Sequence record: NC_048203.1
Length of the DNA stretch: 64,000 nt
Source of the DNA: Escherichia phage vB_Eco_mar003J3
Strand: one strand, 5' to 3'
Shown piece after piece: positions 2,834-57,351 of this stretch. The notes under the pieces were generated by a model. It was not told the origin of the DNA. It saw only the letters and a program-made list of their open reading frames with translations, and ran no database searches. The position numbers and the translations under genes were made by a program. Position 1 is the first letter of the stretch; each line of letters opens with the position of its first letter.

Positions 2834-3343
2834 TTAATTATTTCGGGCATATTCCCCATGAAGTTTCTCTCTCAGTTGAATTAGAGCTTCATTTGCTGCT
2901 TCAGGAGTACTGTGCAGCCCTGCGGAGTATGACTTACCTTTAAACATTATTCTACCCTGCCACTGACCAGATGCTTTGTGGTAGGATACTCCCTTAAATC
3001 CGCTAGTATTCCTAGAAGATTTACTAGCATTATGAGTATTAGTGGTACTATCCGCTGCTCTTAAATTTAAAGGATGTATGTTTAACTTATTGCAGTCTTT
3101 ATGATCAATCATTTCCGGCCTATACCCATAATATAGTATAAATACTATGATATGAGCTAAGTAATCTTGGTGATCAACGTTAACTCTGATATACCCAGAG
3201 CTTTTGTGCAAAGATCCCGCAGGTTTATTGGCAAACTTAGTATTAAATATCTTCTCCTCTCTGGAGTTTCCGGAGAGCGGATTCCACACCAGTACACCAT
3301 CTTCTAAACGGAATCTATAAAGTATAGACTCATAGTCTAGCAT
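2834..3343 (-). CDS. HNH homing endonuclease
   Basis: 169 aa; IDHKDCNKLNIHPLNLRAA HNH core; C-terminal SGFKGVSYHK...W.GRI AP2-like region. Confidence 0.75.
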   Translation of the reverse strand: MLDYESILYRFRLEDGVLVWNPLSGNSREEKIFNTKFANKPAGSLHKSSGYIRVNVDHQDYLAHIIVFILYYGYRPEMIDHKDCNKLNIHPLNLRAADSTTNTHNASKSSRNTSGFKGVSYHKASGQWQGRIMFKGKSYSAGLHSTPEAANEALIQLREKLHGEYARNN

Positions 3344-51632: not shown

Positions 51633-51667
51633 CCCCAGTGGATTATCCACTGGGGTTTTCTTTTACT
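51633..51667. terminator. bidirectional terminator between convergent modules
   Basis: CCCCAGTGG-attat-CCACTGGGG flanked by T-runs on both strands. Confidence 0.65.
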
Positions 51668-52931
51668 TAGAACTTCTTAGTGCATTAAGTTCTCTCTGCA
51701 TATATTCTAACTGTTCCTTATAGTCCACTATTTGTTTTTGTAGTTCCTGTACAACTGTGATAATATCAGCCATAACAGCCTTATCATTTACGTTTAGAAT
51801 CTCAAATTCTTTTCCATTATCATCTACAGACTGACCCCCACTAAAAACATAAATAGGGTCAATAGCTTCCATCTGCTGTGCTAAATACCCACGCTGGGGA
51901 ACTACATTTCCTTTATATGTGAATTCTACAATCCCTATTTGTTCAATTCGTTCCCACGCACCCGATTTCGGCAATTTAAAATTGTCTTTGATACGAACAT
52001 CAGAACCTTGAATAGCAACTTGCCCTAAAGGAGTATGCATTGTGCTGTCCGCTCGCATAGAATACCAGAGATTTATATTATCAGATCTTGTTAATTGCCA
52101 TGTATATTGTGCGACTCCATCTACAGTATAAATGTAGTTGGCTACCGTACAGTCAGAGTTTTCAAGATGGGATAACTTGTTATGTCTAACACCGTCTAAC
52201 GACTCTTGGCTTTTTAGCTTTACAATTGTAGCAGTGTATGCGTCAGAATTCCCAAAAAGTGCTCGAGCTACAAGGTTTGATTGTGTTTCTAATCCATTCT
52301 GTGGTAGTAAAGTCCCTGGTATATAAAGGTGTCCATTAGAATTAAAACGCATTACTGCTGTATTTGTTCCATGTGCTTCAACCCTTGCTTCGGTAATTCC
52401 ATTTCCAATTGCTGCTTGTGCGTAGAAATCTGCACTAAAGTTATCGGTAGCTCCTACTTTATACTTTGAACTAACTCTGCCACCACTTACTACAGTATTC
52501 ACTGGGGGTAATACTGCATCGGCATTGTTAACACTCCAAGAAGTATTTGCCGCAACAAAACCACCAGATGCACGAATAACCCAAACACCAACAAAACTAC
52601 GTGGCAATATGTTGTTTTTTATTGAATATTTTCCATAGACTCCATCACTGGCCCCAGCGTTAATTGTTAATACTGCGTTGTTTCTTACTCTGCTAAAAGT
52701 ACCATCATTAGGTAAAAATGTATCTTCAACTGCAGAATTATATCCGAAAGCTCCGCTTACAGCTTTAGGTGCTGGTTGCCAAACTTTTCCGCTTGTATCG
52801 TTTGCTGCCGTACCATAAATATTAGGTGCTGCCGCTTCATAGACACGCCCATCTTCGGAAGAATTACCACCATCACCACGCCCAAAAAGACTTAACGTAG
52901 AATTTGGTTGCGCACCGTTCCGGTCAGGCAC
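51663..52931 (-). CDS. L-shaped tail fibre protein, distal part with C-terminal intramolecular chaperone domain
   Basis: 422 aa; in frame with 53013-53888 across one TAG; GTG start without convincing SD; C-terminus parallels LtfA. Confidence 0.6.
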   Translation of the reverse strand: MPDRNGAQPNSTLSLFGRGDGGNSSEDGRVYEAAAPNIYGTAANDTSGKVWQPAPKAVSGAFGYNSAVEDTFLPNDGTFSRVRNNAVLTINAGASDGVYGKYSIKNNILPRSFVGVWVIRASGGFVAANTSWSVNNADAVLPPVNTVVSGGRVSSKYKVGATDNFSADFYAQAAIGNGITEARVEAHGTNTAVMRFNSNGHLYIPGTLLPQNGLETQSNLVARALFGNSDAYTATIVKLKSQESLDGVRHNKLSHLENSDCTVANYIYTVDGVAQYTWQLTRSDNINLWYSMRADSTMHTPLGQVAIQGSDVRIKDNFKLPKSGAWERIEQIGIVEFTYKGNVVPQRGYLAQQMEAIDPIYVFSGGQSVDDNGKEFEILNVNDKAVMADIITVVQELQKQIVDYKEQLEYMQRELNALRSSK

Positions 52932-53012
52932 ACGGAATGTAGTAGATCCGTTACCCGTTGAATACCTACCTCGTTTTTCTGGGTCAGCAAGCCATTCAGC
53001 ATCGGAAATAGG

Positions 53013-53888
53013 CTATAACATTTGAGCGTATGCCCACAATTCAGGCCAGTCTGCGCGATTTAGCAATTGACCATCTGATAAGACTTCATATGGTTGAATA
53101 TACGCACGACTATCACGAAGATGGAAATCACCAACGCCATAGTTCATTACACCATTCATTGTCGGGCCGACAGTGCCTGTATTTACAAGGTTTTGCACCC
53201 AACGTTTCGTCGCTGCATCATAATCGTTAACTGGATCACCAGACAGTGGGGTAGGACCTTGGGGCCTAACAACAGACCATAAAGCTTCCCTATTGGTTAC
53301 TCCTGTACCTCCCTGTTCAACAGATAATGATATCCACTTGTTTTCTACGTCACTATACGCACCCCAAGCACCTGAATTCTGAATAGTTAACCTTGAGCTT
53401 TTATCTCCACTATACACTCGAGTTTCTGTTCCAAATTCCTGGCTAAATCTATCAAGTTCTAGTGCAGTTTTAGCCCCATCTACAGTAGAAGAACCAGTAC
53501 CACCCTGAGCAATAGTAATAGCTTTGGTAAGTGAATTTAGTTCTGTAATATCGTTATTAGCACCCTTACCTGCTTTAGTATCTAGGCCAGTATTAATACT
53601 CTCAATGGATGTGTTAATACCACCCAAGGCAGAATTAATACCACCAATAGACTCGTTAATGCTACTAACAGACTCATTAGTATTGTTAATAGAAGTATCA
53701 ATTCCACTTAGACGAGTGTTTAATTCTTGCTGATCTATATTATACTTAGAGATTTGTAAGTATTTAGAAGTTAATACAACAGCACCAGCCTCTCCATCAA
53801 CAGAGAAAACACCAGCAACAGCAGCATCTCTGTTAACTACAATATATGGCGCCATTGCGCCAGATTTAGGCATTAAATTACGTGACAT
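53013..53888 (-). CDS. L-shaped tail fibre protein, N-terminal part (ends at in-frame amber)
   Basis: 291 aa; SD AGGAAAT; GGTG repeats; stops at TAG inside a tail-collar-like motif. Confidence 0.6.
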   Translation of the reverse strand: MSRNLMPKSGAMAPYIVVNRDAAVAGVFSVDGEAGAVVLTSKYLQISKYNIDQQELNTRLSGIDTSINNTNESVSSINESIGGINSALGGINTSIESINTGLDTKAGKGANNDITELNSLTKAITIAQGGTGSSTVDGAKTALELDRFSQEFGTETRVYSGDKSSRLTIQNSGAWGAYSDVENKWISLSVEQGGTGVTNREALWSVVRPQGPTPLSGDPVNDYDAATKRWVQNLVNTGTVGPTMNGVMNYGVGDFHLRDSRAYIQPYEVLSDGQLLNRADWPELWAYAQML

Positions 53889-54286: not shown

Positions 54287-56929
54287 TTACTTTTGTAACA
54301 TCAGATTAACTAGTTCTTTAAGCTCTGCGACTTCTGACTTCAGCGTTTCGATTTCCGTATTCTTTCTCTGTAACTCCTGAACGACGGTTACTACATCCGC
54401 CATGACCGCGCGGTCATTTACGTTCATTATCTCAAATTCATTACCGTCATCACCAAGAGCGGTCCCCCCAAAGTAAGTATAGGTATCGTCGATATCAGCC
54501 ATTTGCTGTGCAAGAAAACCGCGCTGACGGATTTTACTTCCGTTATAGTAAAATTCCATGACACCTATTTTAGCAATCCTTTCCGCTGCGCCATCCCTTG
54601 CAGGAGCAAAGCTATTCTTAATGCGGATATCAGATCCTTGGATGGCGACGCGCCCTTCAGGGGTGTACATCCCGTTATCTGCTCGGATCGAAAAATATTT
54701 AATATCAAGACCTGTTACGTCCATCCTTGTTACAAACTGTTGTTGTGAACCTCCTGGAGATACAAGATAGTGATATATTTTTGTTGTGTTATTTTCGACT
54801 TGGCTCAGATAGTTGACGTTATCCGCGTCCGTCGACGATCTATCCGCTTTTTTTATGACCGCCGGGCCGAAAGCGCCATCACGGCCCGAAAATACGCGCC
54901 CCCGGGCTTCACTCTCACATGACATATTGCCATCAGAGTCTATCGCCAAAATAGCCTGTTTAAGTACGCCACCGATTCTGGATACTGCTGATATGCGAGT
55001 CACCACCACTGACGACCCTTTCGTCGCAGCCACGGACATCGACGCATCGGCGATATTAACGCCGTTTTCGGATAGTCGGCTAGTCAGCCACCCGCCCGCC
55101 GTAGCCCCCGCAGGTAGAACAGTCTCCTTATGTACGACCTGCAACGTGTCCTGGATATTAGGGTTAGTCACCTTTTCCAGAACCCAGCCACGCGTCGCGG
55201 CATCCATCTCGCTAACTGGATCTGCTGCTAATGGCGTGGCACCTACTGGGCGGACGTTAAGCCAAGCAGCGGCGCGGTCTGCGAGATCGCTCAAGTTATT
55301 TGCTTTCTTGAGTACATCTGAAGAAGCTGGAACTTCTAGGGCAGTTCTAGCCTCTTCTACTGTAGAAGCTCCGGTACCACCTTTATTTATCGGGATAATA
55401 TCTTCTACAGAGGCTTCTCCAAGTCCTAAAGCTGATCTTGCAGTCTCAATAGTAGAAGCTCCGGTACCACCTTTATTTATTGGGATAATATCTTCTACAG
55501 AGGCTTCTCCAAGTCCTAAAGCTGATCTTGCAGTCTCAATAGTAGAAGCACCAGTACCTCCTTTAGCTACAGGTAAAATTCCCTCAAAACTATCTGTAGA
55601 AATGGCAATATTAACAGAACCATCTGCAGAAGGTCCAATCCCATTAACCATAGTAATATACGGAATTTGTTCCTTAATAGCACCAGCGTTTTCCTCGCCT
55701 TTTGCAGCAGCACGGAATGCTTGACCCTGCATCATATCAGGTAGACGGAAAGTAGTAGTACCATTACCAGTGGAGAAATAGAGAGTTGCACCAGCTTGCC
55801 ATTGTTCCTCAGTAACCGAAGGGATTAAGCCAGCTTCAATAGCTTCCCAAGTATCTGGGTAGTCTACACGTAGAACCTCACGACCATCAGCAGGAAGAAC
55901 ACCAGGGTACCCAACGCCTGAATCCTTATCATAAGGGAACCAAGTAACTTCACCTAACCACAGAGAAGGATTACCACCAGGAAGAGTAATCTGTATGTTA
56001 CCTACATCATCTGCACGAACGTTATTAATAGAAACTATCTTTTGCTCTGCCTCTACTAACTCTAATTCTGGAGTCTCAGCAGTTCCAGCTACTTTGTACC
56101 ACCCATATTTTGAGTCAGTTTGGTTCCATACTAGGATCTTTTCACCTAGTGCGCGACTACTAACGTCAGTATCTGCTTCTTCTTTGGTCTTGTAGACTTT
56201 GATAAAGCCAGATATATCTTCTTTATCCAGTTTGCTATCTACAATCTGAGTAGCACGATCTGCCTCAGCTTTAGCACGATCTGCCTCAGTAGTAGCATCG
56301 ATAGCTTTATCGCCAGCTTCAGTAGCAGAACCAGCAGCATTAGTTTCAGAAATCTTAGCGTTTAGTTCTGATTGCTTAGCAGCAGCAGCATGCTCACCAG
56401 CAGTTGTTGCAGCAGCATCGGCTCCTTCTTTAGCAGTTTCTGCACCAGTTTGTGCAGTTTCAGCGGCTACTTGAGCTTGTTGAGCAGCAGTTTTAGCTTG
56501 TTCGGCTAGTTCTCTACTTCTTTCAGCATTTTGAGCAGCTAACTGAGCCGCATCTTTGTGTGTGCCGGCTTCTGTAGCAGATGCAGCGGATTCTTCAGCG
56601 CTAGCCTTAGATAATCCAGCTTGTCTCTCAGATTCCGTAGCAGAAGTAGCTGCTTGAGTAGCAGAAGCTTCAGAAGAATCAGCGTAAATAGCAGCTCTAT
56701 TTTCTGAGTCTCTAGCGTTAGTTTCAGATAATTTTGCTGCAATTTCAGAATCTTTTGCAGCAGCAGCTGAAGCTGCGGATGATTCCACAGCCGCAGTCAG
56801 TTCACCCGCAGTAATAGAACTGATAGAGTTACCTAAAACTACTGTATATTTAGGATACTTACTAGCAGTAGTTGTAGTATCATCTATGTTCAGAATCTGC
56901 TGTACAATAATTTTAGTTTTAAGTGCCAT
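54287..56929 (-). CDS. ltfA: L-shaped tail fibre protein LtfA-like
   Basis: 880 aa; Ala-rich coiled N-terminus, GGTGASTIETARSALGLG repeats, tail-collar-like STGNGTTTFRLPD, C-terminal chaperone-like domain. Confidence 0.75.
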   Translation of the reverse strand: MALKTKIIVQQILNIDDTTTTASKYPKYTVVLGNSISSITAGELTAAVESSAASAAAAKDSEIAAKLSETNARDSENRAAIYADSSEASATQAATSATESERQAGLSKASAEESAASATEAGTHKDAAQLAAQNAERSRELAEQAKTAAQQAQVAAETAQTGAETAKEGADAAATTAGEHAAAAKQSELNAKISETNAAGSATEAGDKAIDATTEADRAKAEADRATQIVDSKLDKEDISGFIKVYKTKEEADTDVSSRALGEKILVWNQTDSKYGWYKVAGTAETPELELVEAEQKIVSINNVRADDVGNIQITLPGGNPSLWLGEVTWFPYDKDSGVGYPGVLPADGREVLRVDYPDTWEAIEAGLIPSVTEEQWQAGATLYFSTGNGTTTFRLPDMMQGQAFRAAAKGEENAGAIKEQIPYITMVNGIGPSADGSVNIAISTDSFEGILPVAKGGTGASTIETARSALGLGEASVEDIIPINKGGTGASTIETARSALGLGEASVEDIIPINKGGTGASTVEEARTALEVPASSDVLKKANNLSDLADRAAAWLNVRPVGATPLAADPVSEMDAATRGWVLEKVTNPNIQDTLQVVHKETVLPAGATAGGWLTSRLSENGVNIADASMSVAATKGSSVVVTRISAVSRIGGVLKQAILAIDSDGNMSCESEARGRVFSGRDGAFGPAVIKKADRSSTDADNVNYLSQVENNTTKIYHYLVSPGGSQQQFVTRMDVTGLDIKYFSIRADNGMYTPEGRVAIQGSDIRIKNSFAPARDGAAERIAKIGVMEFYYNGSKIRQRGFLAQQMADIDDTYTYFGGTALGDDGNEFEIMNVNDRAVMADVVTVVQELQRKNTEIETLKSEVAELKELVNLMLQK
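55362..55541. repeat. 90-bp tandem duplication (2 copies, 1 mismatch) inside ltfA
   Basis: 55362-55451 and 55452-55541 identical except one C/T; encodes 30-aa repeat; degenerate third copy follows. Confidence 0.8.
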
Positions 56930-57351
56930 TATTGAGTTACTCCATCGCTGATGTATACTTTACCTTCCATAATACGGAAAGAACTGACTTCAGAGCCAAT
57001 TACATCACGAGTCATTAGGATATCATAATAACCAGCAAAACGTTGTCTTGGGTTATACTTATCACGTTCTTTAGATGCTTTTTCACCAATATTAGTAACG
57101 TCTGCAACGGAAAGACTAATTGCAGCAGCACCTTGAGCAGCATCAATAACACGAGTTTTAAAGTTAGCTAGAACCTCGGCGTTCTCATCTAAACTAGACT
57201 TAATAGTTCCTCGGAGTGAATATCCGGTTAAGTTAACAGGAACTTCTGTTGGTGGATATACACTGTCATCAACATCCATAAACTGCATGATAAGACCATA
57301 AGGTACTTTCTCATCAACAACAATATCAATAACTCGGTTTTCTGTACTCAT
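56929..57351 (-). CDS. tail collar / small tail protein (T5 p132-like by size and position)
   Basis: 140 aa; lies between fibre and pb4-like gene. Confidence 0.45.

What the first reader, a model, noticed from the sequence alone, without database searches (positions are those of the whole stretch)
55362..55541. Near-perfect 90-bp tandem duplication inside ltfA
Two adjacent 90-bp units differ at one nucleotide and encode a duplicated 30-aa GGTGASTIETARSALGLGEASVEDIIPINK unit, with a degenerate third copy downstream. Such a recent in-frame duplication in a fibre shaft is a substrate for slippage or recombination and could give length polymorphism in the fibre.
Basis: seen in the sequence. Interest (0 to 1): 0.45.

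Follow-up and report, generated by a model that had tools for sequence, protein, structure and literature searches.

The report
Old repeat in phage tail fibre
The 90-bp tandem repeat is real and sits in the side tail-fibre gene of a T5-like phage, but it is an old, shared duplication of a very common fibre-shaft building block whose two copies were recently made alike again by gene conversion, so it is ordinary.

Summary
A period-90 repeat lies at 55362-55565 (2.3 copies, 96% matches), in frame in ltfA (54287-56929, minus strand, 880 aa) of a T5-like Epseptimavirus. It encodes three 30-aa GGTGA units: c1, c2 and a diverged c3.

The idea of a recent duplication is not supported. Seven GenBank genomes (vB_EcoS-26175I-V and its RefSeq copy, Citrobacter YZU-L1) match the gene at full length. 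The three I read have the same three units, and their c2 differs from c1 at 9-10 of 90 nt. With YZU-L1 as outgroup, 5 of the 9 window-specific substitutions in 1.9 kb fall in 26 nt of c2. Each one changes c2 to the c1 base. That is c1-to-c2 gene conversion, so the units do recombine.

No copy-number variation is seen in this clade. It is seen in homologous 90-bp arrays of sibling Kuraviruses (5 versus 3 perfect units). It was also reported for a different 19-aa repeat at the same LtfA position in phage DT571/2.

The unit is an uncurated but widespread fibre repeat: 1,968 protein clusters, with 2-18 matched units among the best 150. It matches the helix-plus-turn shaft of R-pyocin fibres.

The most likely role is a length-setting shaft spacer just after the LtfB docking region. 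Interest is low.

The parts
54287..56929 (-). ltfA, the lateral (L-shaped) tail fibre protein A, 880 aa
   Evidence: ORF. phrog_5481 tail fiber E = 1e-218. DT57C LtfA 8hqz_d E = 7e-257 over aa 1-597. 297 T5-like phage records match the first ~1300 nt.
55472..55561 (-). Unit c1, aa 457-486, GGTGASTIETARSALGLGEASVEDIIPINK
   Evidence: It is 100% identical in nucleotides in the window, 26175I, 26175II and YZU-L1.
55382..55471 (-). Unit c2, aa 487-516. Same peptide as c1, with 4 synonymous nt differences from c1. Its first 20 nt are identical to those of c3.
55292..55381 (-). Unit c3, aa 517-546, a diverged unit (GGTGASTVEEARTALEVPASSDV...). It corresponds to the single GGTGA motif of other T5-like LtfA proteins.
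   Evidence: By my count from the sequences, it matches SP3 'GGTGATTKEAARTALEVPAASDV' at about 18 of 23 residues.
55362..55565 (.). The near-perfect period-90 DNA repeat tract as seen at DNA level
   Evidence: TRF score 380. The self-match is 114 nt with 4 mismatches.
55406..55431 (-). Minimal gene-conversion tract in c2 (gene nt 1499-1524). The maximal tract is 55392-55459.
   Evidence: Five window-unique substitutions, each to the c1 state, with 26175 and YZU-L1 agreeing on the other state. Chance estimate is about 1e-7.
55409..56236 (-). Central region homologous to the Kuravirus long-tail-fibre proximal protein (SU10 gp12), aa 232-507. In DT57C the equivalent phiEco32 gp14-like region is proposed to be the LtfB docking region.
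   Evidence: 7z47_D E = 1.2e-46. The DT57C homology (aa 223-471) and the docking proposal are from PMC4728585.
55247..55297 (-). Conserved anchor NLSDLADRAAAWLNVRP (aa 545-561) at the start of a high-GC patch. It is shared with DT57C, SP3 and TrudiGerster LtfA.
   Evidence: GC is 56% at 54800-55300 against 41% in c1+c2. TrudiGerster is 86.7% identical over 60 nt there.
54491..54634 (-). C-terminal intramolecular chaperone (Peptidase_S74), aa 766-813
   Evidence: Pfam PF13884, 26.3 bits against a cutoff of 22.
56929..57351 (-). ltfC, the collar protein that attaches the L-shaped fibre
   Evidence: phrog_34807 and phrog_15373.
51663..53888 (-). ltfB, the second fibre protein, interrupted by an in-frame TAG at codon 292 (window 53013-53015)
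   Evidence: phrog_6921 positions 1-273 and 302-733 are split over two ORFs. The codon is TCG in 26175II and TCA in YZU-L1 but TAG here, in a gene 99.3% identical to 26175II.

Best explanation
The repeat is a three-unit array of a 30-residue 'GGTGA...AR..LGLG' fibre-shaft module in LtfA. It lies directly after the region that, in the related phage DT57C, is thought to dock the second fibre protein LtfB. It lies before the conserved NLSDLADRAAAWLNVRP anchor and the receptor-binding distal part.

Each unit most likely contributes one short stretch of a three-chain interdigitated 'helix-plus-turn' shaft. I estimate roughly 2.5-4 nm per unit, so the number of units would set the length of the distal arm.

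The c1/c2 duplication is old. It probably arose by unequal exchange between two GGTGAST-coding motifs, with the junction in the shared GCTTCTAC. It is shared by all sequenced relatives. In this genome's lineage, a 26-68 nt tract of c2 was overwritten by c1 through intragenic gene conversion, which restored near-identity.

The same homology makes gain or loss of units by slippage or unequal recombination possible, but no such variant is seen in this clade.

Shown: the anatomy, the sharing with relatives, the conversion tract, and the wide distribution and variable copy number of the unit. Inferred: the shaft fold, the length per unit and the spacer function.
For: The three relatives I read have the same three units, with c1 and c3 100% identical to the window and c2 diverged.

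There are 29 YZU-unique, 5 26175-unique and 9 window-unique sites in nt 701-2643. Five of the 9 window-unique sites lie in 26 nt of c2, and all five change to the c1 state. The chance estimate is about 1e-7.

The first 20 nt of c2 equal the first 20 nt of c3 in all genomes.

T5-like LtfA proteins have unrelated tandem blocks at this same place: 19-aa units in DT57C and TrudiGerster, 25-aa in SP3, 13-aa in Kenya-K42. The QIPY-to-NLSDL distance is 115-124 aa in all of them. A copy gain of the 19-aa unit in DT571/2-ABF, immediately after the gp14-like region suggested to contact LtfB, is reported in PMC4728585.

The unit is widespread. 1,968 protein clusters match at E <= 1e-3, with 2-18 matched stretches among the best 150. 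The commonest spacings are 28, 30, 45, 40 and 31 aa.

Kuravirus XT32 and XT73 carry 5 versus 3 perfect 90-bp units with only 4 other mismatches in 3 kb. Those units are 70% identical in nucleotides to c1+c2.

Structural lead: the unit profile hits the R1 pyocin fibre 6CL5 at E = 1.1e-3, 8vbx gp47 at 1.2e-3 and P7-1 short tail fibre gp92 at 1.8e-7. By my arithmetic the pyocin match lies at the end of the Shaft domain (residues 529-598, about 93 A, helix-plus-turn; PMC6116203).
Against: No solved structure covers this region of any LtfA or of SU10 gp12. Only the N-termini are resolved.

The pyocin match is short and only marginally significant.

My AlphaFold monomer model was useless (pLDDT 41).

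No copy-number variant exists among the 8 genomes with this module, so the length-tuning role is untested here.

The conversion inference rests on one outgroup sequence. It cannot exclude import of a homogenised c2 from an unsampled phage, or a consensus-polishing error.

The Kuravirus copy-number difference could be an assembly effect. XT18 has an aberrant 31-nt junction in its array.
Confidence: 0.7

Rival explanations
1. One reading: a recent duplication that arose in this genome or its immediate ancestors, with the copies not yet having had time to diverge.
For: c1 and c2 differ at only 4 of 90 nt, all synonymous. The 5' end of c2 equals the 5' end of c3, as expected just after an unequal-exchange duplication.
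Against: The same array, with a diverged c2 (9-10 of 90 nt, two amino-acid changes, one triple-nucleotide codon change), is present in 26175 and YZU-L1. Their ltfA is otherwise about 98-99% identical from nt 720 onward. With YZU-L1 as outgroup, the diverged state is ancestral.
Confidence: 0.08
2. The near-identity is an assembly or polishing artefact. Reads from c1 were mis-mapped onto c2 and the consensus was homogenised, while the array itself is real.
For: The five changes are confined to 26 nt and make c2 identical to c1. Perfect 90-bp arrays do visibly trouble assemblers, as the XT18 junction shows.
Against: c2 keeps its own flanking markers on both sides (unit positions 3, 9, 12 and 81). 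Reads of 100 nt or more would be placed uniquely. The whole array is only about 200 nt. I have no reads, so this cannot be excluded.
Confidence: 0.08
3. The main significance of the GGTGA units is as conserved linkers for exchanging fibre modules between phages, that is, homologous-recombination junctions, rather than as length spacers. This is not exclusive of the best explanation.
For: The array lies between two mosaic boundaries. Homology to about 290 T5-like phages stops at gene nt 1286-1303, about 65 nt before c1. GC jumps from 41% to 56% just after c3. c1+c2 resemble Kuravirus units (63% aa by my count; 70% nt) more than the T5-like unit does, while c3 resembles the T5-like unit. In R-pyocin fibres the motif directly precedes the receptor-binding lectin domain. 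The rest of ltfA is demonstrably mosaic: nt 91-720 are 98.9% identical to IrmaTschudi and the remainder about 99% to 26175.
Against: The observed breakpoints at about nt 90 and 720 are not at GGTGA motifs. The junction at about aa 430 lies before the first motif. No recombinant with a crossover inside a unit was found.
Confidence: 0.3
4. The units are themselves receptor- or glycan-binding sites, so that duplication raises avidity.
For: None directly. The fibre recognises O-antigen in related phages (PMC4728585).
Against: The motif is highly conserved across phages of unrelated hosts (Escherichia, Microbacterium, Klebsiella, Acinetobacter and others). That is the opposite of what is expected of a specificity determinant. 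In DT57C, specificity maps to the divergent C-terminal part of LtfA.
Confidence: 0.04

Closest known systems
Tandem 19-aa repeat block (VDSALADKADIATTYTKME) of LtfA in phages DT57C and DT571/2 (Golomidova et al. 2016, PMC4728585)
   Same: It sits in the same protein and at the same position: after the single or first GGTGA motif that ends the phiEco32 gp14-like region proposed to dock LtfB, and before the NLSDLADRAAAWLNVRP anchor. It has 2.5 tandem copies. A copy gain was seen in a laboratory mutant. The overall spacer length is similar, 115 versus 124 aa.
   Different: The unit sequence and length are unrelated (19 aa, rich in Asp and Thr, against a 30-aa GGTGA unit). Here the extra units lie before the orthologous GGTGA motif, not after it.
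30-aa GGTGA arrays in Kuravirus long tail fibre proteins (SU10 gp12, PDB 7z47; vB-EcoP-XT32, XT73 and XT18)
   Same: The motif, the strict 30-aa (90-bp) period and the preceding domain are the same. SU10 gp12 matches aa 232-507 at E = 1e-46. The XT units are 70% identical in nucleotides to c1+c2 and 63% in amino acids by my count. Adjacent copies are identical or nearly so.
   Different: These are podoviruses with a different fibre attachment. Copy number is higher (up to 7 motifs) and apparently variable between sibling isolates.
Shaft domain of R1/R2 pyocin fibres (PDB 6CL5, 6CL6, 6CT8; Buth et al. 2018, PMC6116203)
   Same: It contains one copy of the motif (GILPLARGG[LV]G..TAAGAR..[IG]GAG), matched by the unit profile at E = 1.1e-3. 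It is a trimeric interdigitated helix-plus-turn shaft whose authors stress that repeats allow fibre length to be adjusted.
   Different: There is a single copy, not a tandem array. It sits next to an HxH iron site and directly before the lectin domain. The sequence match is short.
Adenovirus fibre shaft pseudo-repeats (from my own knowledge, not tested here)
   Same: The number of tandem structural repeats in a trimeric fibre shaft sets its length and differs between related viruses.
   Different: The fold is unrelated (triple beta-spiral), the repeat is 15 residues, and the host is eukaryotic.

Membership tests
DT57C-type branched lateral tail fibre, protein LtfA (T5-like phages) | N-terminal domain and coiled coil homologous to DT57C LtfA / T5 pb1, which attach to the LtfC collar | tested here: met
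   8hqz_d E = 7e-257 over aa 1-597. 297 T5-like records match nt 1-1300.
DT57C-type branched lateral tail fibre, protein LtfA (T5-like phages) | Gene order ltfC - ltfA - ltfB | tested here: met
   ltfC lies at 56929-57351 and ltfB (phrog_6921) at 51663-53888. ltfB carries an in-frame amber codon.
DT57C-type branched lateral tail fibre, protein LtfA (T5-like phages) | Central region homologous to Kuravirus gp14 / gp12, proposed to dock LtfB | tested here: met
   SU10 gp12 (7z47_D) matches aa 232-507 at E = 1.2e-46. Docking itself is a proposal from PMC4728585 and was not tested here.
DT57C-type branched lateral tail fibre, protein LtfA (T5-like phages) | C-terminal self-cleaving intramolecular chaperone (Peptidase_S74) | tested here: met
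   PF13884, 26.3 bits against a cutoff of 22, aa 766-813. Cleavage is not testable here.
GGTGA / AR-x-N-LGLG fibre-shaft repeat (no curated model; defined here from 668 units) | Consensus x-x-L-P-I-A-N-GGTGA-T-T-A-A-x-AR-x-N-L-G-L-G | tested here: met
   c1, c2 and c3 all fit. The unit profile finds 1,968 clusters at E <= 1e-3.
GGTGA / AR-x-N-LGLG fibre-shaft repeat (no curated model; defined here from 668 units) | Tandem arrangement with a fixed period, most often 28-31 aa | tested here: met
   The period here is exactly 30 aa. The spacing distribution in 150 proteins peaks at 28 and 30.
GGTGA / AR-x-N-LGLG fibre-shaft repeat (no curated model; defined here from 668 units) | Forms a trimeric helix-plus-turn shaft, as in the R-pyocin fibre | tested here: inconclusive
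   There is only a short sequence match to 6CL5 (E = 1.1e-3). The monomer model had pLDDT 41. No trimer prediction tool was available.
Curated phage fibre repeat families (Pfam Collar PF07484 and PTR PF12789 were the only weak matches seen; NCBIfam) | A match above the gathering threshold that covers the repeat | tested here: not met
   No Pfam family covers aa 457-546 at E <= 1. There is no NCBIfam hit. Multi-unit homologues also lack any Pfam hit on the units.
Contingency (phase-variable) repeat locus | Short-unit repeat whose copy changes shift the reading frame and switch expression | tested here: not met
   The unit is 90 nt, a multiple of 3, so any copy change stays in frame.

The most novel reading that the evidence does not exclude
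The GGTGA unit would be a general, so far uncurated, length-tuning cassette of phage fibres, kept recombination-prone by concerted evolution. In this phage, remodelling of the LtfA array (conversion of c2: V to A and T to V) would be functionally linked to loss of LtfB (S292 amber). This would echo the DT571/2-ABF mutant, in which a repeat change in LtfA accompanied LtfB inactivation and was proposed to be compensatory.
Probability: 0.1. Interest if true: 0.5.

Novelty: new member of a known kind. Interest (0 to 1): 0.22.

Why it matters
The finding matters little on its own. It adds a clean, polarised example of gene conversion between in-frame structural repeats in a phage fibre.

It also shows that near-identical tandem copies need not mean a recent duplication.

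It flags a very common 28-31-residue fibre motif (nearly 2,000 protein clusters) that no curated family covers. That could improve annotation of tail-fibre genes.

For phage engineering, the array marks a tolerated place to lengthen or shorten the distal arm of a T5-like lateral fibre, or to swap its receptor-binding end.

Tried and rejected
- I looked for outgroups and copy-number variants of this exact module and found none. The search for related loci in IMG/VR found no relatives. An exact degenerate 35-nt pattern found nothing in IMG/VR or JGI metagenomes.
- Two word-indexed protein searches returned only short, distant fibre proteins: 3 hits and 11 hits. Neither listed the GenBank relatives.
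- A single-sequence AlphaFold2 model of aa 436-585 gave mean pLDDT 41 and pTM 0.25. I did not use it, and I ran no fold search on it.
- The narrow three-sequence unit profile did not reach any resolved structure. A broader 68-unit profile was needed.
- A literature search for 'GGTGA' with 'tail fiber' gave nothing relevant.
- The DT57C and SU10 cryo-EM papers resolve only the fibre N-termini.
- The plus-strand ORF 54813-55724 (303 aa), which overlaps the repeat in antisense, has no PHROG match and lies in the high-GC patch. I treated it as spurious.
- A phase-variation reading was rejected because the unit is a multiple of three.
Full report
**1. The observation**

Tandem Repeats Finder reports one strong array in the region: 55362-55565, period 90, 2.3 copies, 96% matches, no indels, score 380. 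The period-90 self-match at 95% or better runs for 114 nt.

The array lies in the minus-strand ORF 54287-56929 (880 aa) and is in frame. In peptide phase the units are:

| Unit | Residues | Window coordinates |
|---|---|---|
| c1 | aa 457-486 | 55472-55561 |
| c2 | aa 487-516 | 55382-55471 |
| c3 | aa 517-546 | 55292-55381 |

c1 and c2 encode the same 30 residues and differ at 4 synonymous bases. c3 shares GGTGAST and then diverges (39 of 90 nt differ from c2). The only correction is that the quoted peptide units lie 20 nt off the quoted coordinates.

**2. The gene**

- The protein matches tail-fibre PHROGs (phrog_5481, E = 1e-218).
- It matches DT57C LtfA (PDB 8hqz_d) at E = 7e-257 over aa 1-597.
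- It matches the Kuravirus SU10 long-tail-fibre proximal protein gp12 (7z47_D) over aa 232-507 at E = 1e-46.
- It ends in a Peptidase_S74 intramolecular chaperone at aa 766-813.
- Upstream lies ltfC (56929-57351) and downstream lies ltfB.

This is the ltfC-ltfA-ltfB locus of a T5-like phage. The closest records are Epseptimaviruses. The name ltfA is right.

**3. The duplication is shared, not recent**

Of 297 phage records that match the gene, only seven cover it fully: vB_EcoS-26175I-V with its RefSeq copy, from Austria, and Citrobacter phage YZU-L1, from China. The three I read have the same three units at the same positions. Their c1 and c3 are 100% identical in nucleotides to the window. 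Their c2 differs from c1 at 9-10 of 90 nt, giving A to V and V to T, the latter by a whole-codon change GTA to ACC. Independent assemblies with the same architecture rule out an assembly artefact for the array itself.

In every genome the first 20 nt of c2 equal those of c3 (GGTGGTACCGGAGCTTCTAC), while c1 differs there at 3 bases. So c2 reads as the c3 head joined to the c1 body, with the junction in the shared GCTTCTAC. That is what unequal exchange between two GGTGAST-coding motifs would leave (inference).

**4. Why the copies are nearly identical here**

From nt 701 to the end of ltfA, a three-way alignment gives 29 sites unique to YZU-L1, 5 unique to 26175II and 9 unique to the window. 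YZU-L1 is therefore the outgroup to the other two.

Five of the nine window-unique changes lie within 26 nt of c2 (gene nt 1499, 1518 and 1522-1524; window 55406-55431). At each of them, 26175 and YZU-L1 agree, and the window carries the base that c1 has at the homologous position.

c2 keeps its own markers on both sides (unit positions 3, 9, 12 and 81). The replaced tract is therefore internal: at least 26 nt and at most 68 nt (55392-55459).

A rough scan statistic gives 2e-5 for the clustering and 4e-3 for all five changes landing on the c1 base, so about 1e-7 jointly.

The simplest reading is intragenic gene conversion from c1 to c2 in this lineage. I cannot exclude import of an already homogenised c2 from an unsampled phage, or a consensus-polishing error, because I have no reads.

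**5. What the unit is**

No Pfam or NCBIfam model covers it. A profile of the three units, searched against 1.84 billion cluster representatives, found 1,968 proteins at E <= 1e-3 and 318 at E <= 1e-10. The best 150 carry 2 to 18 matched stretches each.

In those 150 proteins the commonest spacings between motifs are 28, 30, 45, 40 and 31 residues. The consensus from 668 units is x-x-L-P-I-A-N-GGTGA-T-T-A-A-x-AR-x-N-L-G-L-G. A tblastn search of phage genomes found the region in 405 records from phages of Escherichia, Microbacterium, Klebsiella, Salmonella, Acinetobacter and other hosts, mostly in annotated tail fibres.

A broader 68-unit profile searched against the PDB gave these hits:

| Chain | Protein | E-value |
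|---|---|---|
| 7z47_D | SU10 gp12 | 2.7e-14 |
| 8hqz_d | DT57C LtfA | 3e-9 |
| 9zd7_AE | Pakpunavirus P7-1 short tail fibre gp92 | 1.8e-7 |
| 6CL5_A | R1 pyocin fibre | 1.1e-3 |
| 8vbx_R | Tail fiber (gp47) | 1.2e-3 |

In DT57C and SU10 the region is not resolved.

In the pyocin fibre, the match (GILPLARGGLGANTAAGARNNIGAG) falls at chain positions 254-282. [quoted passage not shown] P7-1 gp92 is a slender trimer about 410 A long and 25 A thick for 499 residues (PMC13338283).

From these two references I infer 0.8-1.3 A per residue, or about 2.5-4 nm per 30-residue unit. This is an inference, not a measurement.

**6. Position in the fibre**

Comparing T5-like LtfA proteins, all share the sequence up to about aa 430 (QIPY at 421). 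They then have one GGTGA motif, then a tandem block, then the conserved anchor NLSDLADRAAAWLNVRP. The tandem block differs between phages:

| Phage | Tandem block |
|---|---|
| DT57C, TrudiGerster | 19-aa units, 2.5 copies |
| SP3 | 25-aa units, 2 copies |
| Kenya-K42 | 13-aa units, 3 copies |
| This clade | Two extra 30-aa GGTGA units placed before the orthologous motif (c3) |

The QIPY-to-NLSDL distance is 115-124 residues in all of them.

c3 resembles the T5-like motif (about 18 of 23 residues with SP3, my count). c1 and c2 are closer to Kuravirus units: 63% amino-acid identity by my count, and 70% nucleotide identity over exactly c1+c2.

Golomidova et al. place the 19-aa block immediately after the phiEco32 gp14-like region that they propose contacts LtfB. 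They found a laboratory mutant (DT571/2-ABF) with one extra copy, which they thought compensated for loss of LtfB (PMC4728585).

The site is thus a recognised repeat-bearing spacer at the branch point of the fibre. What is new here is the kind of unit.

**7. Does the copy number vary?**

It does not in this clade. The eight genomes all match at full gene length, and the four arrays I read each have three units.

It does vary in homologous arrays. The fibre genes of the sibling Kuraviruses XT32 and XT73 differ by 4 mismatches in 3 kb plus a clean 180-nt indel. That indel gives 5 versus 3 perfect 90-bp units, or 7 versus 5 GGTG motifs. XT18 has an aberrant 31-nt junction that breaks the frame. 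This warns that short-read assembly of perfect arrays is unreliable, so this evidence is suggestive only.

**8. Mechanism, with confidence**

Most likely (about 0.7): the array is a structural shaft spacer whose unit number sets the length of the distal arm of LtfA beyond the LtfB branch point. The duplication is old. The copies exchange sequence by gene conversion, and the same homology permits rare gain or loss of units.

A non-exclusive rival (about 0.3) is that the conserved motif DNA mainly serves as a junction for swapping fibre modules. The array does lie between two mosaic boundaries. Homology to other T5-like phages ends at nt 1286-1303, and GC rises from 41% to 56% just after c3. However, the breakpoints I could locate in this gene, at about nt 90 and 720, are not at motifs.

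A recent duplication and a polishing artefact each get about 0.08. A receptor-binding role for the units gets about 0.04.

**9. Verdict**

The finding is real but ordinary. It is a new member of a known kind: in-frame structural tandem repeats in phage fibre shafts. Two modest additions come out of it: a polarised gene-conversion event, and the recognition that the unit belongs to a large uncurated motif family. Interest is 0.22.

Noticed in passing
window 53013-53015 (minus strand), within ltfB 51663-53888: ltfB is interrupted by an in-frame amber codon at codon 292 (AQML*PISDAEW). The codon is TCG in vB_EcoS-26175II and TCA in YZU-L1, in a gene that is otherwise 99.3% identical to 26175II. 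The product would lack the receptor-binding part and the C-terminal chaperone, unless the phage is grown on an amber-suppressor host.
   Followed up: partly
window 56210-56839 (ltfA nt 91-720, Ala-rich coiled coil): This segment is only about 70% identical to the otherwise closest relatives (26175, YZU-L1) but 98.9% identical to phage IrmaTschudi. ltfA is therefore a recombinant of at least two lineages, with breakpoints near nt 90 and nt 720.
   Followed up: partly
window 54800-55300: This patch has 52-58% GC in a 40% GC genome. It starts at the conserved NLSDLADRAAAWLNVRP anchor, and 60 nt of it are 86.7% identical in TrudiGerster even though the flanks are unrelated. It may be a second conserved junction for module exchange.
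   Followed up: no
L001 and L003 (vB_EcoS-26175I and II), ltfA nt ~2075: The 26175 records carry 1-4 extra bases in ltfA. One search located one extra A near nt 2075 in 26175II. The extra bases break the gene into two annotated 'hypothetical protein' CDSs. The window and YZU-L1 have the intact 880-aa frame.
   Followed up: partly
L016 (vB-EcoP-XT18) 3185-3234: The fibre gene of XT18 is split into two overlapping CDSs by an aberrant 31-nt partial unit inside its perfect 90-bp array. This is probably a repeat mis-assembly. The copy numbers of such arrays in public records should be treated with care.
   Followed up: partly
window 53013-53888 (LtfB N-terminal ORF): LtfB also carries two GGTG motifs (ITIAQGGTGSSTVDGAKTALEL and SVEQGGTGVTNREALWSVVRPQGPTPL). 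The second is fused directly to the 'RP.GPTPL..DPV.DYDAAT' anchor that also follows the array in LtfA. The same connector logic is therefore used in both fibre proteins.
   Followed up: no
window 54813-55724 (plus strand): A 303-aa TTG-started ORF lies antisense to ltfA and overlaps the repeat. It has no PHROG match and is most likely a shadow ORF of the high-GC patch.
   Followed up: partly
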